Of a DNA stretch of 64,000 nt, positions 5,096-16,372 are shown one piece after another (position 1 is the stretch's first letter; every line of letters begins with the position of its first letter). The stretch comes from a virus, in the IMG/VR virus record IMGVR_UViG_3300032093_000012, positions 103,476 through 167,475 of that record, one strand, 5' to 3'. Under the pieces are notes generated by a model. The model saw nothing but the letters and a program-made list of their open reading frames with translations. It searched no databases and was not told the DNA's origin. The translations under genes were made by a program, and so were the position numbers.

Positions 5096-5302
5096 ATGAC
5101 AGACGTACTAGATGAACTGACACAGGCATATAGCTTTACCAGAGATGAACTTCTTGGTAAAGCTATCGACGAGATCGCTCAACAACGTAGACACATCGAG
5201 AACCTCTCTCGAGAACACTCAGACCTACGACATGAGAATCAGATCCTCGTAGAGATCAATCGAGACCTACACTGGAAAATGGAATATGAGAGGAAACACT
5301 AA
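5096..5302 (+). CDS. hypothetical coiled-coil protein
   Basis: AGGA RBS, heptad-like pattern. Confidence 0.6.
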   Translation: MTDVLDELTQAYSFTRDELLGKAIDEIAQQRRHIENLSREHSDLRHENQILVEINRDLHWKMEYERKH

Positions 5303-5760
5303 TGTCCGATGCATTTACACAGGAAGAAGCATGGATCTTCGACATGGATGGTACACTCGCTAACTCTAAATGGCGACAACACCACCTCATGGGCATCAAG
5401 AAAGACTGGAAAAGCTGGAATACCGGCATGATCCACGACCTGCCAAATCATGAGATCATCCAGTTTACTCATATCGCTAAGGAAAAAAACATCGCTGTCA
5501 TAGTCTGTACAGGCCGAGAGGATACATACAGAAAAGACACCGAAGATTGGCTCAAGATGCACTGCGTTTCCTACGATATGCTCTTCATGCGAAAGGCAAA
5601 AGACTATCGCAAGGATCAATTCATCAAGAAAGAAATGCTCGAGACTATCAAGTTTCTTAACTACAACCCTACACTCTCTTTCGACGATCGCGACCGAGTG
5701 GTCAAGATGTGGCGAGAAGAAGGTATCCGATGCTTTCAGGTCGACTACGGCGACTTTTAA
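5302..5760 (+). CDS. HAD-family phosphatase resembling the 3'-phosphatase domain of T4 polynucleotide kinase (PseT), stand-alone
   Basis: motifs FDMDGTLA, CTGR, RKD, FDDR. Confidence 0.8.
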   Translation: MSDAFTQEEAWIFDMDGTLANSKWRQHHLMGIKKDWKSWNTGMIHDLPNHEIIQFTHIAKEKNIAVIVCTGREDTYRKDTEDWLKMHCVSYDMLFMRKAKDYRKDQFIKKEMLETIKFLNYNPTLSFDDRDRVVKMWREEGIRCFQVDYGDF

Positions 5761-6870: not shown

Positions 6871-6947
6871 GGACCCTTAGCTCATTTGGTTAGAGTAGCG
6901 GTCTTTTAAACCGTTGGTACTGGGTTCGAATCCCAGAGGGTCTACCA
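6871..6947 (+). tRNA. tRNA-Lys(UUU)
   Basis: cloverleaf, loop CTTTTAA, encoded CCA. Confidence 0.95.
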
Positions 6948-6964
6948 TAATATGGAGAAGTGTA

Positions 6965-7198
6965 ATGAAGAAGATCTTTTTAGCAAGCGCATGTGGATTA
7001 TTTTTGGCCGGTTGCAATGCAACTGTCTATGATAGTCGTCCATCAGTGTATGTTCCTCGGCCGGCAGTAGTCGTACCACCGGTGTATGCACCGTTGCCAC
7101 CGCCGCGTCCTTACTATGTTCGTCAACCTCGTAGAGAGTGTTTTACGACATGGGACCGTACTCCTTATGGGCTGCGCGAGCGAGTTGTCTGTCGTTAA
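6965..7198 (+). CDS. proline-rich lipoprotein
   Basis: signal peptide with lipobox LAGC; GGAG RBS. Confidence 0.75.
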   Translation: MKKIFLASACGLFLAGCNATVYDSRPSVYVPRPAVVVPPVYAPLPPPRPYYVRQPRRECFTTWDRTPYGLRERVVCR

Positions 7199-7204
7199 AA
7201 GTTT

Positions 7205-7294
7205 GGAAGGGTGGCCGAGTGGTTTAAGGCTCCAGTCTTGAAAACTGGCGTAGGCGCAAGTCTACCGTGAGTTCGAATCTCACCTCTTCCGCCA
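7205..7294 (+). tRNA. tRNA-Ser(UGA)
   Basis: long variable arm, loop CTTGAAA, CCA. Confidence 0.95.
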
Positions 7295-7299
7295 AATAA

Positions 7300-7377
7300 C
7301 CCGTGTTAGTGTAGCGATCAAACATACCCGCCTTTCAAGCGTGGAGATCATGGGTTTGAATCCCATACGCGGGACCA
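7300..7377 (+). tRNA. tRNA-Glu(UUC)
   Basis: loop CTTTCAA, bulged anticodon stem, CCA. Confidence 0.85.
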
Positions 7378-7381
7378 ATAC

Positions 7382-7457
7382 GGACCGTTAGCTGAGTTGG
7401 TTTTAGCAGGAGACTCTTAATCTCTTGACGGGGGTTCGAATCCCTCACGGTCTACCA
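7382..7457 (+). tRNA. tRNA-Lys(CUU)
   Basis: loop CTCTTAA, CCA. Confidence 0.9.
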
Positions 7458-7467
7458 AAAAGTTTAT

Positions 7468-7544
7468 TCGCTTGAACCCGAATGGGTATCGGGACCTGAC
7501 TGTTAATCAGGCCACTGTAGGTTCGAATCCTACCAAGCGAGCCA
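7468..7544 (+). tRNA. tRNA-Asn(GUU)
   Basis: loop CTGTTAA, CCA; atypical position 8 and D-arm. Confidence 0.9.
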
Positions 7545-7547
7545 AAT

Positions 7548-7622
7548 TTGAAGTGTCGGCTTATAGCACTATAAATAAACCGATATATCATCACCGAGTG
7601 TTAGTGATGACGCTTCAAGCCA
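7548..7622 (+). ncRNA. CCA-ended tRNA-sized RNA without an anticodon arm
   Basis: TTGAAGTGTC/GACGCTTCAA stem followed by GCCA; two internal hairpins. Confidence 0.5.
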
Positions 7623-7627
7623 ATTAT

Positions 7628-7702
<75 letters not shown>

Positions 7703-7715
7703 TTTTATAGGATAT

Positions 7716-7883
7716 ATGATGAATGAGTTTGTGATTGAAGTTGGTGATAAGCGTTTGCAAGTTCATGCAAACAATATGATTGAAGCTATTTACATAGCTA
7801 GATCATACAACCAAAAGCGACAAACTTATAGAGTAACAGATACAAAGACTGGAAAAACCGTAACAGGTATTCCACTTGATTAG
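7716..7883 (+). CDS. 55-aa hypothetical protein between tRNAs
   Basis: AGGA RBS; MMNEFVIEVGDKRLQV...GIPLD. Confidence 0.55.
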   Translation: MMNEFVIEVGDKRLQVHANNMIEAIYIARSYNQKRQTYRVTDTKTGKTVTGIPLD

Positions 7884-7886
7884 TTC

Positions 7887-7962
7887 GGGGCCATAGCTCA
7901 GCTGGGAGAGCGCTTGATTTGCATTCAAGAGGTCTGCGGTTCGATCCCGCATGGCTCCACCA
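7887..7962 (+). tRNA. tRNA-Ala(UGC)
   Basis: loop TTTGCAT, G3-U70, CCA. Confidence 0.95.
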
Positions 7963-8022
7963 ATAACGGTTAGTCGCGATAAATAGACTCGCGTGGGCCC
8001 ACGGTTAGCCCATAACAGTTTC

Positions 8023-8098
<76 letters not shown>

Positions 8099-8104
8099 TA
8101 TTGA

Positions 8105-8179
8105 CGCAGAGTGGAGCAGTAGTAGCTCGTTTGGTTCATACCCAAAAGGCCGGTGGTGCAATTCCATCCTCTGCAACCA
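8105..8179 (+). tRNA. tRNA-Met(CAU), initiator-like
   Basis: C1:A72 mismatch, loop TTCATAC, CCA. Confidence 0.85.
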
Positions 8180-8182
8180 ATT

Positions 8183-8333
8183 CACAGGGATGGGTTCCTG
8201 TGCGTCACCAACATCACCGATCGCACGGTCTGATGTTGGGTATAGTGACCAGCCACTGAGGTCTGGAGTGTGCGATCGTCTAACCCATAAAATCTGACAC
8301 GCGAAAAGGTGTCGCTGGATGGCAGTAACCAGC
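8183..8333 (+). ncRNA. unknown structured RNA with two potential pseudoknots
   Basis: five hairpins; two loops have perfect downstream complements (7 and 9 bp). Confidence 0.7.
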
Positions 8334-8342
8334 TATGTTATA

Positions 8343-8377
8343 AAACGGCTAATAGTAGCAAATATTAGTAGCCGTTT
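8343..8377. other. hairpin (processing or termination element)
   Basis: AAACGGCTA...TAGCCGTTT inverted repeat. Confidence 0.45.
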
Positions 8378-8388
8378 CATAACATATT

Positions 8389-8465
8389 GGCCTCGTAGCT
8401 CAGTTGGTTAGAGTGCCAGCCTGTCACGCTGGAAGTCGCCGGTTCGAGCCCGGTCGAGGTCGCCA
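8389..8465 (+). tRNA. tRNA-Asp(GUC)
   Basis: loop CTGTCAC, CCA. Confidence 0.95.
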
Positions 8466-8466
8466 T

Positions 8467-8542
8467 TCCGGAATAGTTCAGCTGGTAGAACATCAGACTC
8501 TGAATCTGAGTGTCGGTGGTTCGAATCCATCTTCCGGATCCA
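8467..8542 (+). tRNA. tRNA-Gln(CUG)
   Basis: loop CTCTGAA, U1-A72, CCA. Confidence 0.9.
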
Positions 8543-8547
8543 AGCTT

Positions 8548-8624
8548 GGGGAAGTGCGCTGGAGAGGCAACAGCAGGGTCTGCAAAACCTTCGAATGTCG
8601 GTTCGAATCCGATCTTCCCTTCCA
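8548..8624 (+). tRNA. tRNA-Cys(GCA)
   Basis: loop CTGCAAA, U73, CCA. Confidence 0.9.
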
Positions 8625-8625
8625 T

Positions 8626-8702
8626 GTCTCGTTAGCTCAACTGAATAGAGCGTCGGTCTACGGAACCGAAGGTTGAGGGTTTGATTCCTTCACGGGACTC
8701 CA
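8626..8702 (+). tRNA. tRNA-Arg(ACG)
   Basis: loop CTACGGA, CCA. Confidence 0.9.
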
Positions 8703-8705
8703 TTT

Positions 8706-8780
8706 GCGGGTGTAGCTCAGTGGTAGAGCGTCACGTTGCCAACGTGAATGTCGTGGGTTCGACCCCCATTGCCCGCTCCA
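8706..8780 (+). tRNA. tRNA-Gly(GCC)
   Basis: loop TTGCCAA, U73, CCA. Confidence 0.95.
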
Positions 8781-8785
8781 ATAAT

Positions 8786-8862
8786 GCGCGTGTGACGGAA
8801 TTGGTATACGTATTAGTCTTAGAAACTAAGTTTTGCAGGTTCAAGTCCTGCCATGCGCACCA
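8786..8862 (+). tRNA. tRNA-Leu(UAG), short variable arm
   Basis: loop CTTAGAA, CCA. Confidence 0.9.
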
Positions 8863-8868
8863 TAAATT

Positions 8869-8981
8869 AGGTTCACTACAGCATATAGACATGATAATAG
8901 GAAAGTTCCGGTGTACAATTCCGGAGGACCTAAGGGTCTTAGTGTAATAGGCTAGCACGTCCTAACCTAAGTGTGAACCTG
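8869..8981 (+). ncRNA. array unit 1: Y-RNA-like, permuted tRNA-like core
   Basis: AGGTTCAC/GTGAACCT closing stem plus TACAGCA; inside: T-arm-like, closed acceptor-like, D-arm-like hairpins. Confidence 0.7.
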
Positions 8982-8990
8982 CATAGTTTT

Positions 8991-9109
8991 AGGCTATCTA
9001 CAGCATATCTTTCGCCTTGTAAGCCGTAGGTCGTTGGTTCGAATCCAACTAGGAGCTCTTTGCTTCTATAGCTCAGCGGATAGAGCAACGTAAATGCATA
9101 GCCTGTTGA
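8991..9109 (+). ncRNA. array unit 2: Y-RNA-like, circularly permuted tRNA-Thr(UGU) core
   Basis: AGGCTAT/ATAGCCT stem plus TACAGCA; anticodon loop, T-arm, closed acceptor stem, D-arm in permuted order. Confidence 0.8.
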
Positions 9110-9118
9110 AAATAAATG

Positions 9119-9146
9119 TTTACTTAATAAATCTTTATGGTATTAT
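9119..9146 (+). promoter_or_regulatory. internal promoter for units 3-5 and the DUF2828 gene
   Basis: TTTACT-N16-TATTAT with extended TG. Confidence 0.55.
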
Positions 9147-9162
9147 CAAGTTATAGAGTTTA

Positions 9163-9226
9163 AGGATCCGTACAGCATACTCGCCGTAAGGCACTTTTAT
9201 TGGAAAAAGCAAAGGGATCCTGTTGA
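9163..9226 (+). ncRNA. array unit 3
   Basis: AGGATCC/GGATCCT stem plus TACAGCA, GCC-GTAA-GGC hairpin, 3' GTTGA. Confidence 0.7.
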
Positions 9227-9231
9227 GTTTA

Positions 9232-9365
9232 AGATTGACCATACCGCAAAACATTTGACTCTTAGAGTCTTACAGCACTGATACAACTTTGCGAAGTTGT
9301 TATCCACGTGGATAGTTTCGAGGGTACACCACGTTAAAAAAGGAAAGTAGAAGTCAATCTGTTGA
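9232..9365 (+). ncRNA. array unit 4
   Basis: AGATTGAC/GTCAATCT stem plus TACCGCA; three internal hairpins; 3' GTTGA. Confidence 0.7.
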
Positions 9366-9369
9366 GTTT

Positions 9370-9426
9370 AGATTCAGTTCCGCATACATTACAGTCTCGA
9401 AAAACTGACAAAGTTGAATCTGTTGA
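9370..9426 (+). ncRNA. array unit 5
   Basis: AGATTCAG/TTGAATCT stem plus TTCCGCA; CAGT-CTCGAAAA-ACTG hairpin; 3' GTTGA runs into the RBS. Confidence 0.7.
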
Positions 9427-9441
9427 AAAGGAGAAAGTGAA

Positions 9442-10875
9442 ATGACTACTTTTGTAAATGCTGTTGTTAATCAGTCTGCTCGTACTGAGAACGGGATGAA
9501 GGCTCGTCAGAATACTGCTAACGCACTTACTGACTTGTTTTTCAAGATCGGTGCTATGCGTGGCCAAAACGTAATCCCTGCTTGGACTGCAGCTCGCGTG
9601 CAAGATCCTGACTTAGCAGCTCGTGTTGCTCTGTGGGCACGTGACGTTCGTGGTGGGGCTGGCGAACGTAAGATCTTCCGCGATATTCTTGTTGATCTCG
9701 CTAACACTGACGCTTCTCAAGCAGCTGCTTTGGCACATAAGGTTCCTGAGCTTGGTCGCTGGGATGACCTACTTGTTCTCGTTGGTACTCCAATTGAAGA
9801 AGTAGCATTCTTTCGGATCAAGTGTGCCCTTGAAGATGAAAACGGTCTCTGCGCAAAGTGGATGCCTCGTCAGGGTGAAGTAGCTGCAAAGCTGCGTAAC
9901 TATCTTGGCTGGACTCCAAAGTTCTACCGTAAGCGTCTGGTTGAGCTGACTAAGGTTGTCGAGACTCAGATGTGTGCTAAGGACTGGGATAACATCAACT
10001 TCAGTCATGTTCCTTCTGTTGCATCTGCACGTTACAAGAAGGCTTTCGCTCGTCATACTGAAAAGTATAAGGAGTGGGCAGCTGCGCTTGTTTCTAAGGA
10101 TCCAGAAGTGCGCGAATCTGTAAAGGTTAACGCTGGTGCAGTGTATCCTTATGATGTATTGAAGGGTTTGTATAACGGTTATCATACTAACTATGATAAG
10201 GCAAACTACGATCACATCGTAGCGCAGTGGGAAGCACTTCCTAACTATATTGGCGATGCAAGCATCTTGCCATTGGTTGACGTTTCTGGATCTATGACTT
10301 CATCTGCGGGTGGTTATAGCTCTAAGTCAACTACTACATGTCTTGACGTAGCTGTGTCTCTTGGACTGTATCTTGCAGACAAGAACAAGGGTAAGTTCAA
10401 GGATACGTTCTTGACTTTCTCTAGCAAGCCTCAGCTGATGCACCTCAAGGGTAATATCCTTGATAAGCACCATCAGATGTGCACTTCTAAGTGGGAGATG
10501 AATACAAATCTCCACGTTGCTATCCAGAAGATCCTCGATGTAGCAATCGAGGGTTCTGTGCCTCAGGAAGAGATGCCTTCAATGCTTCTTATCCTGTCTG
10601 ATATGCAGTTTGATATGTGTACTAATTATGACGATTCTGCTATGCAGATGATCGCTCGTAAGTATGCTGATGCTGGTTATGTCGTGCCTAATATCGTGTT
10701 CTGGAACTTGAATGCACATGACAATGTGCCTGCTCGTTTCAACGATAAGGGTGTTGCGCTCGTGTCTGGTTTCTCACCAGCGATCGTCAAGGGTATCCTT
10801 GCCGCTGATCTTGATGACTTCACACCAGAAGCCATCATGCTAAAGACGATCATGAGTGATCGCTATGACTACTAA
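9442..10875 (+). CDS. DUF2828-family protein with C-terminal vWA domain (TROVE/Ro60-like architecture)
   Basis: recalled family motifs RDVRGGAGER, GRWDDL, AKWMPR, YRK, VPS; MIDAS DVSGS and SDMQFD; AAGGAG RBS. Confidence 0.85.
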   Translation: MTTFVNAVVNQSARTENGMKARQNTANALTDLFFKIGAMRGQNVIPAWTAARVQDPDLAARVALWARDVRGGAGERKIFRDILVDLANTDASQAAALAHKVPELGRWDDLLVLVGTPIEEVAFFRIKCALEDENGLCAKWMPRQGEVAAKLRNYLGWTPKFYRKRLVELTKVVETQMCAKDWDNINFSHVPSVASARYKKAFARHTEKYKEWAAALVSKDPEVRESVKVNAGAVYPYDVLKGLYNGYHTNYDKANYDHIVAQWEALPNYIGDASILPLVDVSGSMTSSAGGYSSKSTTTCLDVAVSLGLYLADKNKGKFKDTFLTFSSKPQLMHLKGNILDKHHQMCTSKWEMNTNLHVAIQKILDVAIEGSVPQEEMPSMLLILSDMQFDMCTNYDDSAMQMIARKYADAGYVVPNIVFWNLNAHDNVPARFNDKGVALVSGFSPAIVKGILAADLDDFTPEAIMLKTIMSDRYDY

Positions 10876-10999: not shown

Positions 11000-11090
11000 G
11001 GGTGGGCTGCAGAGACGGTGGTTCTGCGACGGACTGTAAATCCGTTCCCTAAGGGTAACACTGGAGGTTCGAATCCTTCCCCACCTACCA
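11000..11090 (+). tRNA. tRNA-Tyr(GUA)
   Basis: loop CTGTAAA, long variable arm, CCA. Confidence 0.9.
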
Positions 11091-11091
11091 T

Positions 11092-11168
11092 GCCGTTGGG
11101 TCGGTAGTGGCTATCGAGACGGTTTCATACACCGTTTAAAGTTGTTTCGAGTACAACCCTCGGCACCA
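11092..11168 (+). tRNA. tRNA-CAU (elongator Met or Ile2), mismatched acceptor stem
   Basis: loop TTCATAC, T-arm GTTGT-TTCGAGT-ACAAC, CCA. Confidence 0.7.
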
Positions 11169-11174
11169 GTTTCT

Positions 11175-11332
11175 TGACGCATAGCTCAGAGGTAGAGCAA
11201 TAAAAGCAAAAAGAGCACTGCGACCCAGCTAGTGAAGGGGCTGTCCTGATAAGACAGTAGCAGCGAGGGGCGGAACCTCGGCGGTGCACCATAAGACAGG
11301 GGTGGAAGGATCGTTACCTTCTGCGCCAACCA
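11175..11332 (+). pseudogene. interrupted tRNA (Ile-like) whose two halves flank an intact tRNA-Ile
   Basis: 5' half TGACGCA-TAGCTCAGAGGTAGAGCA; 3' half ATAAGACAG...GAAGGATCGTTACCTTC-TGCGCCA-A-CCA. Confidence 0.7.
11215..11291 (+). tRNA. tRNA-Ile(GAU), atypical T-loop
   Basis: GCACTGC/GCGGTGC acceptor, loop CTGATAA, T-loop GGCGGAA, CCA. Confidence 0.75.
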
Positions 11333-11368
11333 TTTACATAAATATTTTTTTATGTAGGAGTATTTTAG

Positions 11369-11989
11369 ATGGAAGATTTTTTAAACGCTGTTGAGAGCAG
11401 TCAACACTGTCAAAGAAATTGGGACTTAAGTAGAGAGATTGATCCAGAACATATCAAGATATTTGAAGAAGTAGTAAAGAATGTACCTAGTAAACAAAAC
11501 ATAGCTTATTATAAAGTACATTTTATTACTAACAGAAATATTATTGAAGAAATATATCAATGGACAATGACTGAGAGCTCTGAAGACACAGACTTTTATA
11601 ATCCTCAAGTATTAGCAAATTTGCTTGTAGCATTTGAAGCACATTGGGATACAAGCAAAGATGGAAGAGGTGAACGTATAATCGAAAGAACTATAAAAAC
11701 TATAGATTATAATGGATACACTATCAACGTTGATAGACATCAATCAATAGGAATAGCTTCAGGTGTTCTAGCTTTGATAGCAAACTATCTTGGTTATAAG
11801 ACTGGTTTTTGCAGATGTTTTAAACAAGATCCAGTTAATAACATAATTAAATCTGAAAATAATATTGATATGCTATTAGGAATAGGATATCCTAAAAATG
11901 ATAAACCACATACTGTACATCATATGTTAAGTATGGTAAATGTAGAACCAATTCCTAAAACTGAGATACCTATAATTAAGCTACCTTAG
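11369..11989 (+). CDS. nitroreductase-family protein
   Basis: CQRNW, PSKQN, LGYKTGFC and IGYP motifs. Confidence 0.75.
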   Translation: MEDFLNAVESSQHCQRNWDLSREIDPEHIKIFEEVVKNVPSKQNIAYYKVHFITNRNIIEEIYQWTMTESSEDTDFYNPQVLANLLVAFEAHWDTSKDGRGERIIERTIKTIDYNGYTINVDRHQSIGIASGVLALIANYLGYKTGFCRCFKQDPVNNIIKSENNIDMLLGIGYPKNDKPHTVHHMLSMVNVEPIPKTEIPIIKLP

Positions 11990-12055
11990 TGTAATTGGAA
12001 AGCACCCGGTGTTGTGGACGCCGGAGTTCAAGTTCGAATCTTGGAGGTAGTACCA
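11980..12055 (+). tRNA. tRNA-His(GUG) lacking G-1, with A73
   Basis: loop TTGTGGA, ACCA end; overlaps the upstream stop codon. Confidence 0.85.
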
Positions 12056-12071
12056 TATAAATAAAATATAA

Positions 12072-12148
<77 letters not shown>

Positions 12149-12152
12149 ATAT

Positions 12153-12228
12153 GCCGACTTGGTGAAGGTGGTCCTCACGCTAGTCTGAAGAACTAGAGAA
12201 CCTCGATCGAAACGAGGAGTCGGCACCA
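12153..12228 (+). tRNA. tRNA-Phe(GAA)
   Basis: loop CTGAAGA, T-loop ATCGAAA, CCA. Confidence 0.85.
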
Positions 12229-12232
12229 TAAT

Positions 12233-12318
12233 GGAGCGTGGGCAGGATGGTAATGCAGCGGTTTGCTAAACCGTGCAACCGCAAGGTTGAATTGGTTCGA
12301 TTCCAATACGCTCCGCCA
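12233..12318 (+). tRNA. tRNA-Ser(GCU)
   Basis: loop TTGCTAA, long variable arm, CCA. Confidence 0.9.
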
Positions 12319-12330
12319 TAAATAAGAAAT

Positions 12331-12404
12331 ATCGGTGAAGTGTTACGGTAGCACATCAGTCTCCAAAACTGAGGGCGAAGGTTCGACTCCTTCCACCGGT
12401 GCCA
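12331..12404 (+). tRNA. tRNA-Trp(CCA)
   Basis: loop CTCCAAA, CCA. Confidence 0.9.
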
Positions 12405-13252: not shown

Positions 13253-13961
13253 ATATTTTCAATGCCTCCAAACGGTTTTGACTATATTCAAAAAACATTC
13301 TTCTTACTGTGTTTTCATCTTCTACTTCGTATAATGATTTAAACTGTTTTATAAAAGAATCATAGTCTTGATTTAAAATATACTTTGTTATTGGAAATTT
13401 TATTACTTGATTTTTATATTCTAATAAAATTTCATTAACTTTATTTATCTCTTCTGAAAGATATTTTTTAATTCCACGAATTTTTTTAATATTATATCCA
13501 TATTTTTGATAAAAAAATAAATAATAATGGCAAAAAAATGTTAATTTGAATGATTCTGCAGAATCATCATGTAAGATTAGTAATCTACTATGATGATTCT
13601 TAACAATATAATCAATTATTTTTTCAAAATTTTTAATGGAATTATTTTCAATTCCTGGAGGATGGATATTCATCCTAATAAATAATTCATTTTTAAAATT
13701 TAATTTATAAATTTCTATTTCTTCAAATATTTTATTTTCTTGCAATATCTTATATTGATTATGTGATATATTATTTTGTAAACCGTATAAACCATAAGAA
13801 TACGTTTTTATATCACATAATAACCAATCAAAAGTATTTCTTTTACTTAATTCAGCACCTAAAAAAGCTTTATGATTTTTACAAGTTTTACCTATTAGAT
13901 ATGATAACCAATCACCGGAACCACCACTTGAATATATGATGCAATCAAATTGTTGCATCAT
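13236..13961 (-). CDS. hypothetical protein (very AT-rich)
   Basis: long ORF, N-terminal SSGGSG. Confidence 0.65.
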   Translation of the reverse strand: MMQQFDCIIYSSGGSGDWLSYLIGKTCKNHKAFLGAELSKRNTFDWLLCDIKTYSYGLYGLQNNISHNQYKILQENKIFEEIEIYKLNFKNELFIRMNIHPPGIENNSIKNFEKIIDYIVKNHHSRLLILHDDSAESFKLTFFCHYYLFFYQKYGYNIKKIRGIKKYLSEEINKVNEILLEYKNQVIKFPITKYILNQDYDSFIKQFKSLYEVEDENTVRRMFFEYSQNRLEALKIYEKQL

Positions 13962-14830
13962 ACTACCGAACACATTTTTTTCATTCGATCAGATGGTGGA
14001 ATATATTCTAGTGAATTTTCTTTATATTTTGTAAAAGCCCATTTTCTTTCTCTACACCACCAGCATGTTTTACATGTTTCTTTAAAAAAATTTGTGGATT
14101 TTATAAGACCTTCACATGATCTCGTATAAGGTAATAGTGAATCTAATAAATCATATTTTTTATACAAATTAGCAACAAATTCTTTTGTCAAAAACATAAG
14201 AGGATTTGCTACTAACTTTTCTTCAACATAGTTTATTGATTCAGTTCCTTTAAAGTGATTATCAGGTTCATCTCTGATAGTTTCTCTTTCATTTATAAGT
14301 TCTTCTGGAAGTGGATCAGGATTTTTTGTTAATCCACTATAAACTATAGTTATTAAACCGTTTCTTTTTAAACTGTCAATATGATTAAACATTTTTTTAC
14401 TGAATTCATCAACCAATTCATGATTGCCAAGATAACAATAATTATGACTTAAAAATATTTTACCTTTTTCAATTTCTAATATTTTTTCTATTTGTTCTAT
14501 AACATTTGTAGCTACAGCTAAGTTCCAAGGCTTATTATCTCTTTTAAAAGTCATTGGCATAATTTTAATATCTAGATTATAATCTTTTATAGTCTTAGCT
14601 AATAAAAATGCTAAAAGACTACTATCAGCTCCACCGCTGACCCATATACCAACTGGTCCTTTTAAAGGAATATAAAGATCAACATACTCTGTTTCTTCTA
14701 GATTATAATATCTAGCGCAAAACAAGTCATCACCATAATACGGTGTATGTCTATTATTATTTTTTACAGTTATTCTTTCGGCTTTTTTACTTTTTAATAT
14801 ATTACCGAATATTTTATTTAATGATAGCAT
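13958..14830 (-). CDS. QueC-like adenine-nucleotide alpha-hydrolase
   Basis: PP-loop SGGADS; C-terminal TRSC...CKTCWWCRER. Confidence 0.7.
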   Translation of the reverse strand: MLSLNKIFGNILKSKKAERITVKNNNRHTPYYGDDLFCARYYNLEETEYVDLYIPLKGPVGIWVSGGADSSLLAFLLAKTIKDYNLDIKIMPMTFKRDNKPWNLAVATNVIEQIEKILEIEKGKIFLSHNYCYLGNHELVDEFSKKMFNHIDSLKRNGLITIVYSGLTKNPDPLPEELINERETIRDEPDNHFKGTESINYVEEKLVANPLMFLTKEFVANLYKKYDLLDSLLPYTRSCEGLIKSTNFFKETCKTCWWCRERKWAFTKYKENSLEYIPPSDRMKKMCSVV

Positions 14831-15295: not shown

Positions 15296-16372
15296 TTATT
15301 CAAACTCATCTTCTACATCATTCTTTTTATTACTAGTGCCCCAAATACCGCATAGTATAGGGTACTTGTCTTCTTTTAGAGACTTTTGATCATAAAGATT
15401 AGCTGCTTCCATGACTCTCAGTTCATCAAAAGCATATCTAGGAATGGTCATAGTTGTTTCGTCTCTCAACTTTACTACTGCTTCTGCGTCAGAAAGCATC
15501 TCAGGATTTTCTAATGTTTTTGGGCGATGTATAGTACTAAAGAGCTTGGCTAGTGATGCAGCCTTATCACCGAATTCTTGAGACAATTCTGCAAAATCAT
15601 CTTCTCTTAAGACACACTTGGTAAAAGCATTTGTGCCAAAAATTGAATGCAGGCCTGCAGCCAAACATAATTCTGTGTCGTAATTTCTTTCTTTTAATAA
15701 AGAAAAATTTCTCATAAGATGATCGTGTAAAGAACCTCTAGAATGTTTATGTTTATTAGCTCCCTTACTCACTAAGAATTCACTAAGTCTTTCAAAATCA
15801 TCACATCTTCTTGCTCTGAACTTAAACATTAGTGTTCTTCTGAGACTAAAACACGTGCGCGAGACCGCGCGCGCAGCATGAATATTATTACCAGGAAATA
15901 TTAGAGCTCTGTTTCTTTTTGGTATAACAGATTTAACTATTTCTCCGTCATCTACAACAATTGTTTCACCTGCCCAATCTATATTCCAATTATCTATAAG
16001 GTAAATTACTATAGTCCATTCATCATCTCTATGAGAATCTTTATGTGTATAACCATCAACACCATAAGTGTGTGCGTTGATATAGCATCTCAGCAATTTC
16101 GTATCTTGAAGAGAATATTTTTCTTGTATTGAATTCCAAGCAACTTTTAAATTATCCGGTAATGAGTATGTTATATCAGCTAAATTGGCACCACCTGCAA
16201 AAGCTTTTGCAAAATTGATATTCCAATGACCGTGAGGATCTGTCTTTTTTGATGATTTCCATCCAGGCGTGTATGATCCTCTATCGGCTATTTTAGATAA
16301 AGTATTATAAATCTCTTCATCTAGAAAATTTTCTATAACATGATATTTTTCGTTTTTTAAATCAATACTCAT
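15296..16372 (-). CDS. 2OG-Fe(II) oxygenase fused to an HD-like (DUF6817-type) domain
   Basis: HKD...WAGET...H...R motifs; C-terminal HSRGSLHDHL, AGLHSIFGT. Confidence 0.7.
   Translation of the reverse strand: MSIDLKNEKYHVIENFLDEEIYNTLSKIADRGSYTPGWKSSKKTDPHGHWNINFAKAFAGGANLADITYSLPDNLKVAWNSIQEKYSLQDTKLLRCYINAHTYGVDGYTHKDSHRDDEWTIVIYLIDNWNIDWAGETIVVDDGEIVKSVIPKRNRALIFPGNNIHAARAVSRTCFSLRRTLMFKFRARRCDDFERLSEFLVSKGANKHKHSRGSLHDHLMRNFSLLKERNYDTELCLAAGLHSIFGTNAFTKCVLREDDFAELSQEFGDKAASLAKLFSTIHRPKTLENPEMLSDAEAVVKLRDETTMTIPRYAFDELRVMEAANLYDQKSLKEDKYPILCGIWGTSNKKNDVEDEFE

What the first reader, a model, noticed from the sequence alone, without database searches (positions are those of the whole stretch)
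8869..10875. Five-unit ncRNA array with a shared handle and variable cargo, directly upstream of a DUF2828/vWA (Ro60-like) gene: candidate new RNP system
Seen: five consecutive units share one layout. Each has a 7-8 bp closing stem whose sequence differs while pairing is kept: AGGTTCAC/GTGAACCT (8869/8973), AGGCTAT/ATAGCCT (8991/9098), AGGATCC/GGATCCT (9163/9215), AGATTGAC/GTCAATCT (9232/9353), AGATTCAG/TTGAATCT (9370/9414). Every stem opens with AG and closes with CT+G. An unpaired TWCMGCAWA motif follows the 5' strand (TACAGCATA x3, TACCGCAAA, TTCCGCATA). Units 2-5 end in CTGTTGA and units 3-5 are preceded by GAGTTTA. The interiors (about 35-115 nt) are unrelated hairpin sets. Unit 5 runs directly into the AAGGAG RBS of a 477-aa helical-plus-vWA protein with an intact MIDAS (DVSGS). 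Established: Ro60/Rsr (TROVE+vWA) binds the closing stem of Y RNAs encoded next to its gene, and bacterial YrlA RNAs carry a tRNA-like second module. Inference: the DUF2828 protein is a divergent Ro-like ring that binds the stem+UACAGCA handle and loads interchangeable RNA modules (adaptors, decoys, or RNA repair/decay tethers). The handle lacks the canonical Y-RNA bulged-C helix, so this would be a distinct RNA family. An alternative is an autoregulatory 5' leader with several binding sites. I cannot confirm that it is undescribed.
Basis: partly seen in the sequence, partly recalled or inferred. Interest (0 to 1): 0.95.

Follow-up and report, generated by a model that had tools for sequence, protein, structure and literature searches.

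The report
Phage Ro60-like protein with partner-RNA array
An uncultured T4-type phage carries five small folded RNA genes that share one conserved "handle", just ahead of a gene for a protein predicted to fold like the RNA-surveillance ring Ro60; the same pairing recurs in very different phages and microbes, and neither Rfam nor the papers I searched describe this RNA family.

Summary
Five same-strand units at 8866-9426 each have a 7-8 bp terminal stem (AG.../...CU+G). An unpaired UWCMGCAWA motif follows the 5' arm and a GUUGA tail follows the 3' arm.

The units sit inside a 21-tRNA array and end 7 nt before the ribosome-binding site of a 477-aa gene (9442-10875).

- **Unit 2:** a YrlA-type permuted tRNA mimic (Rfam YrlA 37 bits, below the cut-off of 69). 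Unit 1 is a degenerate one.
- **Conservation:** 94 non-identical units with 48 different, always complementary stems lie upstream of relatives. A covariance model gave 112 hits, all on the gene's strand.
- **Breadth:** the same handle lies beside homologues in a mycobacteriophage, Felix O1-type coliphages, a cyanophage, and 64 of 80 prokaryote-genome loci.

My reading is a divergent Ro60/Y-RNA-type particle whose RNAs display tRNA parts. Binding and expression are inferred, not shown.

The Bas63 homologue gp130 counters the Ppl defence (preprint). The handle also resembles Dictyostelium Class I RNAs.

This scan has flagged the same system many times on other DNA.

The parts
6871..8862 (+). Upstream part of the phage tRNA array (15 tRNA genes). 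tRNA-Leu ends 6 nt before unit 1.
   Evidence: ARAGORN; Rfam tRNA
8866..8985 (+). Unit 1: closing stem 8869-8876/8973-8980, handle UACAGCAUA at 8877-8885. The interior has a hairpin in the T-arm position and a D-arm-like hairpin (a degenerate permuted tRNA mimic).
   Evidence: model R1 30.4 bits, E 6e-4; orthologue in L002
8988..9109 (+). Unit 2: closing stem 8991-8997/9098-9104, handle UACAGCAUA at 8999-9007. The interior runs anticodon-loop-like CUUGUAA, variable region, T arm, acceptor-like hairpin, D arm, which is a YrlA-type permuted tRNA mimic.
   Evidence: Rfam YrlA RF02553 37.2 bits, local E 1.8e-6, below gathering 69. Alignment A3: 14 of 22 pairs with compensatory changes. R1 122.8 bits.
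9118..9146 (+). Promoter-like site (GTTTAC, 17 nt, TATTAT with TG before the second hexamer) in the AT-rich gap between units 2 and 3. It could drive units 3-5 plus the gene.
   Evidence: consensus scan (pattern match only); likeness to T4 early promoters is from my own knowledge
9160..9226 (+). Unit 3: closing stem 9163-9169/9215-9221, handle UACAGCAUA at 9171-9179, two small hairpins inside (59 nt).
   Evidence: R1 23.4 bits; same class in L006 and L025
9229..9365 (+). Unit 4: closing stem 9232-9239/9353-9360, handle UACCGCAAA at 9242-9250, 129-nt class with variable hairpins, a conserved GUGG...CCAC hairpin and an A-rich 3' segment.
   Evidence: nine orthologues aligned. R1 scores it only 10 bits because of the long interior.
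9367..9426 (+). Unit 5: closing stem 9370-9377/9414-9421, handle UUCCGCAUA at 9378-9386, one small hairpin (52 nt). Its tail runs into the ribosome-binding site, so it is a possible operator for autoregulation.
   Evidence: R1 29.8 bits. In many relatives the last unit ends 12-26 nt before the ATG, and in L012/L013 the unit encloses the RBS and start codon.
9428..9433 (+). AAGGAG ribosome-binding site
   Evidence: read from the sequence
9442..10875 (+). Gene for a 477-aa Ro60-fold protein: N-terminal helical-repeat ring part plus C-terminal vWA domain with MIDAS residues D280, S282, S284, T355, D387.
11000..12404 (+). Downstream part of the tRNA array (6 tRNA genes)

Best explanation
The locus encodes a phage ribonucleoprotein of the Ro60/Y-RNA type, built from a divergent protein family and a divergent RNA family.

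Shown by computation:
- The 477-aa protein has the Ro60 architecture, a helical ring plus a vWA domain with an intact MIDAS.
- Five upstream units share a conserved handle: 5' UUU-AG(R), a 7-8 bp stem of free sequence, an unpaired UWCMGCAWA, a variable interior, the complementary arm, then CU-GUUGA.
- The interiors carry tRNA or tRNA-like parts. Unit 2 is a YrlA-like permuted tRNA and unit 1 a degenerate one; related short units display anticodon-type loops.
- This handle travels with this gene across distant phages and prokaryote contigs.

Inferred:
- The units are cut out of the tRNA-operon transcript (units 1-2) and out of a transcript started at the promoter-like site at 9118-9146 (units 3-5 plus the mRNA).
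- The protein binds the stem plus the single-stranded motif, as Ro60 binds the 5' strand of the Y-RNA stem. Each particle therefore presents a different tRNA-like module.
- The last unit, which abuts the RBS, also lets the protein throttle its own translation.

Most likely role (inferred, lower confidence): the particles engage enzymes that act on tRNA or structured RNA. These could be host nucleases of anti-phage defence, or PNPase or other exonucleases, with the particles acting as decoys or adaptors that protect the phage's translation capacity. This fits the position inside a tRNA array, the known Rsr-YrlA-PNPase and phiLo Ro60-Yrl-PNPase complexes, and the anti-Ppl phenotype of the Bas63 homologue.
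For: Protein:
- AF2 model pLDDT 92, pTM 0.90.
- The Foldseek top 13 PDB hits are all Ro60/TROVE, full length.
- MIDAS residues and many Arg/Lys in the helical half (R40, R67, R70, R76, R106, K139, R143, R163, K164) are invariant or nearly so across 90 sequences.

RNA family in relatives:
- In 80 related viral loci the joint pattern occurs 169 times on the gene's strand, 23 on the other strand and 19 in shuffles. It peaks within 750 nt upstream of the gene.
- There are 94 non-identical units with 48 distinct, always complementary 5' arms. Features I did not impose are conserved: the G after the stem in 99%, UU after it in 84-93%, UUU before it in 72-90%.
- The YrlA-like class shows compensatory changes in 14 of 22 pairs.
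- Model R1 gave 112 hits at E<=0.01, all on the + strand. In the whole 167-kb genome it hits only this region.

Breadth:
- The same handle lies next to homologues in Mycobacterium phage DrSeegs (three units downstream, the middle one tRNA-like), Felix O1-type phages skuden (four units) and Bas63 (two ACAGCAA units in the script; three of four RF01414 hits), and Synechococcus phage BUCT-ZZ01.
- It is also present in 64 of 80 loci from the prokaryote genome collection, including a Woesearchaeota MAG and large Chloroflexi and Lachnospiraceae contigs.
- 711 of 50,697 phage records encode the protein.

Function context:
- Bas63 gp130 is a homologue (40% identity, E 8e-87) and counters the Ppl defence (bioRxiv 10.1101/2024.10.10.617714).
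- phiLo Ro60 binds two upstream Y-like RNAs and host PNPase (PMC12135203).
- YrlA biology is described in PMC4201824.
Against:
- No binding data. Adjacency and co-conservation do not prove that this protein, rather than another factor, reads the handle.
- In the preprint, Bas63 gp130 alone, from a plasmid or inserted in T7, restored plaquing on Ppl. That phenotype therefore does not need the phage's own handle RNAs.
- No RNA ligase or RtcB was found in this genome, only a PNKP phosphatase-domain ORF at 5302-5760. An RNA-repair role has little local support.
- Single-sequence folding z-scores are weak.
- About a quarter of the related loci gave no unit with either method. Some are cut short upstream.
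- R1 also hits tRNA-tRNA junctions, so part of its strand bias comes from tRNAs.
Confidence: 0.75

Rival explanations
1. The units are only a cis-acting 5' leader of the gene's mRNA. They would be several operator sites through which the protein, or another factor, controls its own synthesis, and not stand-alone RNAs.
For: Units 3-5 lie between a promoter-like site (9118-9146) and the RBS. Unit 5 ends 7 nt before AAGGAG. In many relatives the last unit ends 12-26 nt before the ATG, and in L012/L013 one unit encloses the RBS and start codon. KVP40 has a lone UUACAGCAA about 10 nt before its RBS.
Against: Units 1-2 lie upstream of that promoter-like site and follow tRNA-Leu directly. In DrSeegs the units lie downstream of the gene. 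In skuden and Bas63 they are scattered between tRNA genes downstream of it. Unit 2 belongs to the YrlA type, which is known as a stable trans-acting RNA (PMC4201824). Copy number varies from 1 to 8 with exchangeable tRNA-like interiors, which a leader does not need.
Confidence: 0.1
2. The handle is read by some other factor, such as a host or phage RNA-processing enzyme (RNase P, RNase E or a CCA-adding or modification enzyme) or another RNA-binding protein. The Ro60-like gene would merely share the tRNA operon and bind other RNAs, for example misfolded host RNAs.
For: The units are embedded in tRNA operons whose transcripts must be processed. The conserved UUGAGUUU linker between units looks like a single-stranded processing site. 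gp130 works without its RNAs in T7 (preprint 10.1101/2024.10.10.617714). Dictyostelium Class I RNAs, which have a near-identical handle, are known to bind an RRM protein, Rnp1A (PMC7919456).
Against: The handle follows the gene, not the tRNAs. In DrSeegs and BUCT-ZZ01 the units border the gene. Among 80 prokaryote-genome loci, 64 have a unit within 1.5 kb. In the complete own genome no unit lies away from the gene. The layout of terminal stem plus single-stranded motif on the 5' side is the same as the Ro60-binding site of Y RNAs (PMC4201824, PMC12135203).
Confidence: 0.1
3. The units are decaying or rearranged tRNA genes and spacer hairpins of the tRNA array, with no function of their own.
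For: Two units carry tRNA arms. The CM built on them also hits junctions between neighbouring tRNAs. Phage tRNA arrays do hold pseudo-tRNAs.
Against: The non-tRNA handle is the conserved part. 48 different stems stay complementary, and flanking bases that I did not select for are 84-99% conserved. Compensatory changes occur in the stem, T arm and acceptor-like hairpin. Orthologous unit classes persist at 62-91% protein identity and the handle persists down to about 33%.
Confidence: 0.03

Closest known systems
Bacterial and phage Ro60 (Rsr) with YrlA/YrlB Y RNAs (Chen et al. 2014, PMC4201824; Rfam RF02553), including Thermus phage phiLo Ro60 with Yrl1/Yrl2 (PMC12135203; PDB 9KOP, 9L5Y)
   Same: - A ring-plus-vWA protein, with several small RNAs encoded within about 1 kb on the same strand.
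- Each RNA is closed by a 5'-3' stem with a short conserved single-stranded motif on the 5' side.
- At least one RNA carries a permuted tRNA-like module (T arm, acceptor-like hairpin, D arm).
   Different: - The protein is not recognised by Pfam TROVE and has only 10-18% identity to solved Ro60s.
- The RNA motif is UWCMGCAWA (ACAGCAA in distant members) instead of GNCGAAN0-1G / CGAA.
- Unit 2 is below the YrlA gathering score.
- The units form arrays of up to eight with a fixed AG...CUGUUGA frame and a wide choice of cargo, and are commonly embedded in tRNA arrays.
Bas63 (Escherichia phage JohannRWettstein) gp130, a Ro60-like counter of the Ppl defence (bioRxiv 10.1101/2024.10.10.617714)
   Same: Same protein family (40% identity over residues 12-475, E 8e-87). 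The gene borders a tRNA array. Handle units lie between its tRNAs.
   Different: In Bas63 the RNAs lie downstream, among the tRNAs. The preprint only guessed that some annotated tRNAs might be Y RNAs and did not identify the handle RNAs. Its phenotype was obtained with the protein alone.
Dictyostelium Class I RNAs (Rfam RF01414; Aspegren 2004; Kjellin 2021, PMC7919456; search pattern in PMC5054030)
   Same: - A short terminal stem joins the 5' and 3' ends.
- A conserved motif lies directly after the 5' arm (CCUUACAGCAA in D. discoideum, UACAGCAWA here).
- The start is (A)AG and the end is CUGU, with the C pairing the 5' G.
- The rest of the RNA is variable, and the genes occur in clusters.
- In Bas63, DrSeegs and BUCT-ZZ01 the best genome-wide RF01414 hits fall on handle units next to the gene.
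   Different: - All scores are far below the family cut-off (18.9-23.6 against 41.5 bits).
- None of this window's five units is reported at all.
- Class I RNAs are eukaryotic, 42-65 nt, have their own DUSE promoter, and their known direct binder is an RRM protein.
- I could not test whether dictyostelids have a DUF2828 protein that binds them. Homology and convergence cannot be told apart here.
Stable non-tRNA RNAs of phage tRNA clusters (T4 rnaC/rnaD, species 1 and 2 RNAs)
   Same: Small structured RNAs co-transcribed and processed with phage tRNAs (my own knowledge).
   Different: No shared handle and no linked Ro60-like gene. No sequence or structure relation was tested here.

Membership tests
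Ro60 / TROVE protein family | Helical-repeat ring followed by a C-terminal vWA domain | tested here: met
Ro60 / TROVE protein family | MIDAS motif in the vWA domain (DxSxS ... T ... D) | tested here: met
   D280, S282, S284, T355 and D387 are invariant in 90 sequences. DVSGS is read.
Ro60 / TROVE protein family | Match to the Pfam TROVE profile (PF05731) | tested here: not met
   hmmscan at E<=1 lists only DUF7788 and DUF2828. A profile search of PDB gives TROVE/Ro60 chains only at E 0.24-0.7, over the MIDAS stretch.
Ro60 / TROVE protein family | Binds Y RNA on the outer ring surface and misfolded RNA ends in the hole | not testable with these tools
   Needs EMSA, RIP or a structure.
YrlA (Rfam RF02553) | Score at or above the gathering threshold (69 bits) | tested here: not met
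   Unit 2 scores 37.2 bits, local E 1.8e-6. No other unit matches.
YrlA (Rfam RF02553) | tRNA-like module in the order T arm, acceptor-like stem-loop, D arm | tested here: met
   Unit 2 alignment to the model. Consensus fold with compensatory changes.
YrlA (Rfam RF02553) | GNCGAAN0-1G motif near the 5' end (PMC4201824) | tested here: not met
   Read: the position after the 5' arm holds UACAGCAUA. No GNCGAA is present in any unit's 5' part.
YrlA (Rfam RF02553) | Encoded within 4 kb of the Ro60 gene, on the same strand | tested here: met
   All five units are on the + strand, 16-576 nt upstream of the ATG.
Dictyostelium Class I RNA (Rfam RF01414) | Score at or above the gathering threshold (41.5 bits) | tested here: not met
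   The own-genome search reports no unit at E<=10. Units of three other phages reach 18.9-23.6 bits.
Dictyostelium Class I RNA (Rfam RF01414) | Terminal stem, conserved motif next to its 5' arm, (A)AG start and CUGU end | tested here: met
   All five units have AG...stem, UWCMGCAWA, then ...CU-GU. The Class I pattern is GTTGRCCTTACAGCAA...GTCAACTG (PMC5054030) with AAG/CUGU ends (PMC7919456). RNA ends are read at the DNA level only.
Dictyostelium Class I RNA (Rfam RF01414) | Length 42-65 nt with its own upstream DUSE promoter element | tested here: not met
   Units are 52, 59, 112, 114 and 129 nt and lie head to tail in an operon. DUSE is a eukaryotic element and does not apply.

The most novel reading that the evidence does not exclude
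The stem-plus-ACAGCAA handle RNAs and the Class I RNAs of dictyostelid amoebae are one ancient RNA family. This family would be the natural partner of DUF2828-type Ro60-like proteins in viruses, bacteria, archaea and eukaryotes. In phages, the arrays would present tRNA parts as decoys or adaptors in the conflict over tRNAs. Class I RNAs, thought unique to Dictyostelia and of unknown mechanism for twenty years, would then be Y-RNA analogues.
Probability: 0.15. Interest if true: 0.9.

Novelty: new variant of a known kind. Interest (0 to 1): 0.7.

Why it matters
Ro60 and its Y RNAs are a conserved RNA-surveillance particle. Its bacterial and viral roles, and the purpose of the tRNA-like domain of bacterial Y RNAs, are still unclear.

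This locus belongs to a second, much larger viral branch. The protein occurs in 711 of 50,697 phage records, and about 6,000 clusters at 50% identity reach E<=0.001. The partner RNAs of this branch are not in Rfam 15 or in the papers I searched.

The RNAs are modular. One fixed handle carries whole or partial tRNA mimics, which suggests a general way of presenting tRNA look-alikes to enzymes.

One family member already has a measured anti-defence phenotype in E. coli, and several carriers are easy laboratory phages. Binding, processing and function are therefore directly testable.

The likeness to Dictyostelium Class I RNAs gives a concrete hypothesis for an old orphan RNA class.

Tried and rejected
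- **Megablast of the locus against phage records:** no match.
- **Rfam:** at gathering score it found only tRNAs. Permissive Rfam scans of 8780-9500 and 9150-9435 gave only YrlA (unit 2) plus chance-level hits.
- **phmmer against PDB:** nothing.
- **First structure model:** built from a shallow alignment of close relatives, it was poor (pLDDT 63) and I discarded it for the 90-sequence model.
- **RNA-repair partners:** no T4 Rnl1, RNA_ligase or RtcB in the genome. The Rnl1 search had no positive control, so that one is uninformative.
- **Loose stem+CNGCAW search in prokaryote loci:** background was too high (364, 278 and 129), so I replaced it with a stricter one.
- **Internal UUACAGCAC in unit 4:** not conserved in its nine orthologues, so probably chance.
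- **Unit 2 as a recent copy of one phage tRNA:** rejected. Its arms are generic, and the best local matches are spread over Lys, Gln and Thr tRNAs.
- **ESM Atlas:** returned only DUF2828 viral clusters, so I could not check a Dictyostelium homologue.
- **Two literature searches** returned nothing useful.
Full report
**Setting.** The window is the last 64 kb of a 167,475-bp viral record judged 99% complete. It is a myovirus with tail sheath, portal, major head protein, large terminase and a gp46-like nuclease. The finding lies inside an array of 21 tRNA genes, at 6871-8862 and 11000-12404.

**Observation.**
- Each opens AG, closes CU followed by G, and carries UWCMGCAWA 0-2 nt after the 5' arm.
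- Units 2-5 end CUGUUGA.
- AAGGAG is at 9428-9433 and the ATG at 9442.

The degenerate 9-mer is not enriched in the window as a whole (10 found, 5.8 expected). Five copies on one strand within about 560 nt compare with about 0.025 expected by my calculation, and each sits in register with a closing helix. RNAfold recovers the terminal helix in all five, but single-sequence z-scores are weak. The case therefore rests on comparison with relatives.

**The protein.**
- Pfam sees DUF7788 (8.6e-46) and the C-terminal part of DUF2828, and no TROVE domain. PHROG 850 calls it 'RNA-binding protein'.
- Sequence searches of PDB give nothing, or TROVE/Ro60 chains only at E 0.24-0.7 over the MIDAS stretch.
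- A first model from close relatives was poor. With 90 diverse representatives AlphaFold2 gave pLDDT 92 and pTM 0.90.
- The 13 best Foldseek PDB matches are all Ro60/TROVE chains aligned end to end.
- The MIDAS residues and nine Arg/Lys in the helical half are invariant or nearly so.

The protein therefore has the Ro60 fold but lies outside the TROVE sequence family.

**The RNA family in relatives.** I fetched 80 viral loci encoding relatives at 62-91% identity.
- Upstream of most of the closer ones, the motif recurs one to eight times, each time after a stem arm whose complement lies downstream.
- The joint pattern occurs 169 times on the gene's strand, 23 on the other and 19 in shuffled loci. 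The peak is within 750 nt upstream of the start codon.
- Among 94 non-identical units there are 48 different 5' arms, all complementary to their 3' arms.
- Features I never required are conserved: U at the first motif position (91%), G after the stem (99%), then UU (84-93%), and UUU before the stem (72-90%).

The units fall into recurring classes:
- a 111-119-nt class with T and D arms;
- a 116-136-nt class with the stem AGAUUGAC (unit 4);
- an 83-97-nt class with a T-loop;
- 52-66-nt classes (units 3 and 5).

Many of the short units display a 4-5 bp hairpin with a 7-nt loop of anticodon-loop form, such as CUUGUAA, CUUGAAA, CUUCUAA or CUGAAAA.

**Unit 2 and the covariance model.**
- Unit 2 matches Rfam YrlA at 37.2 bits (cut-off 69), with the T arm, acceptor-like hairpin and D arm in YrlA order.
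- Thirteen such units align well. Their consensus fold has compensatory changes in 14 of 22 pairs, across the closing stem, the T arm and the acceptor-like hairpin.
- The model built from them finds 112 matches at E<=0.01 in 76 sources, all on the + strand. These include loci my pattern search had missed.
- In the window it scores unit 2 at 122.8 bits, unit 1 at 30.4, unit 5 at 29.8, unit 3 at 23.4 and unit 4 at 10.
- It also picks up junctions between adjacent tRNAs, an expected false positive of a permuted-tRNA model.
- In the whole genome it hits only this region.

**Breadth.** The protein is encoded in 711 of 50,697 phage records. These include Felix O1-type, KVP40-type, Listeria, Staphylococcus, Campylobacter and Enterococcus phages, and cluster L mycobacteriophages, where it is annotated 'Ro-like RNA binding protein'. 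About 6,000 clusters at 50% identity reach E<=0.001.

The handle is present beside the gene in far relatives:
- DrSeegs has three units just downstream (stems UGGACGC, UGGACUCC, UGGUCAC, each followed by UAACAGCAA or UACAGCAA). The middle one has T arm, acceptor-like hairpin and D arm (R1 55 bits).
- Skuden has four units between its tRNAs.
- BUCT-ZZ01 has three units upstream.
- KVP40 has a lone UUACAGCAA just before its RBS.
- Of 80 loci from the prokaryote genome collection (33-78% identity), 64 have a stem+NCAGCAA unit within 1.5 kb. Motif counts are 275 on the + strand against 136 on the - strand.

**How it probably works.** The layout matches the Ro60-binding part of Y RNAs: a terminal stem with a short conserved single-stranded motif on its 5' side. 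Ro60 contacts mainly the 5' strand, at GGUCCGA in animals, GNCGAAN0-1G in bacteria (PMC4201824) and CGAA in phiLo (PMC12135203). I infer that the ring binds stem plus UWCMGCAWA, so that each particle exposes a different tRNA-like module.

On transcription and processing:
- Units 1-2 follow tRNA-Leu after 6 nt and are probably cut out of the tRNA precursor.
- A promoter-like site at 9118-9146 lies in the gap before unit 3.
- The last unit ends 12-26 nt before the start codon in many relatives, and in L012/L013 it encloses the RBS and ATG. This suggests autoregulation.

**Function is the weakest step.**
- For a tRNA-related, counter-defence role: the position in a tRNA array, the tRNA-like cargo, the known Rsr-YrlA-PNPase and phiLo complexes, and Bas63 gp130. 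I confirmed gp130 as a homologue (40% identity); deleting it sensitises the phage to the Ppl defence (bioRxiv 10.1101/2024.10.10.617714).
- Against RNA dependence of that phenotype: gp130 alone rescued T7.
- Context: a cluster L1 'Ro-like RNA-binding protein', LeBron gp53, is toxic on over-expression (PMC13148394). I did not check its homology to this protein.
- This genome has a PNKP phosphatase-domain ORF (5302-5760) but no detectable RNA ligase or RtcB.

**Comparison with known families.** I searched for DUF2828, Ro60 with phage and Y RNA, Ro-like, and the motif itself. I found the YrlA paper, the phiLo paper and the Bas63 preprint. The preprint only guesses that some annotated tRNAs might be Y RNAs. 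None describes this handle.

The handle is strikingly like that of Dictyostelium Class I RNAs. Those have a terminal stem, CCUUACAGCAA after the 5' arm, an AAG start and a CUGU end (PMC5054030, PMC7919456).
- The Rfam Class I model does not report this window's units.
- In Bas63, DrSeegs and BUCT-ZZ01 its best genome-wide hits (18.9-23.6 bits, cut-off 41.5) fall on handle units beside the gene.

I treat this as a resemblance, not membership.

**Verdict.** This is a real, conserved RNA-protein gene pairing. It is a divergent branch of the Ro60/Y-RNA kind, with an RNA family I found described nowhere. Earlier agents of this scan reported the same system on many other genomes. I re-derived the main points independently here.

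Noticed in passing
window 11096-11228 (+): Just after tRNA-Tyr, and about 220 nt downstream of the Ro60-like gene, lies a further closed tRNA-like RNA. It has a roughly 15-bp terminal stem (UUGGGUCG.GUAGUG.GC / GC.CACUGC.GACCCAG) enclosing an anticodon-arm-like hairpin (loop UUCAUAC), a T arm (GUUGU-UUCGAGU-ACAAC) and a D arm (AGCUCAGAGGUAGAGC). It lacks the UACAGCA handle. R1 matches it partially (20.3 bits). There is no Rfam match at E<=1.
   Followed up: partly
window 5302-5760 (+): A 152-aa ORF matches only the phosphatase (HAD) domain of T4-type polynucleotide kinase-phosphatase (PF25109, 4e-36). The ORFs just upstream show no kinase domain. No RNA ligase or RtcB was found in the genome.
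   Followed up: partly
window 9118-9146 (+): A promoter-like site (GTTTAC, 17 nt, TATTAT with TG before the second hexamer) lies in the AT-rich gap between units 2 and 3. It suggests that units 3-5 and the gene form their own transcription unit within the tRNA array.
   Followed up: no
window 8183-8385, 6947-7205 and 7702-7887 (+): Gaps of 185-260 nt between tRNA genes hold no tRNA and no handle unit. I did not examine them.
   Followed up: no
window 11369-11989 (+): A 206-aa ORF sits between tRNA-Tyr and tRNA-His inside the array and has no Pfam or PHROG match.
   Followed up: no
L094 2949-3223 (Bas63, MZ501086 82748-83022): Two small minus-strand 'hypothetical protein' CDSs (bas63_0137 and bas63_0138) are annotated in the tRNA-free gap of the array. 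The first overlaps a + strand tRNA-like handle unit (L094 2982-3107), so it is probably a mis-annotation.
   Followed up: partly
L017 2694-2820, L018 1194-1320, L019 1450-1559: Some relatives carry a second kind of tRNA-like unit. The order is natural (D arm, anticodon arm, variable region, T arm), and the handle's closing stem takes the place of the acceptor stem.
   Followed up: no
window 13958-14830 (-) and 15296-16372 (-): Weak QueC-like match (PF06508, 3e-5), and a fusion of 2OG-Fe(II) oxygenase with a DUF6817/HD-like domain, just beyond the tRNA array.
   Followed up: no
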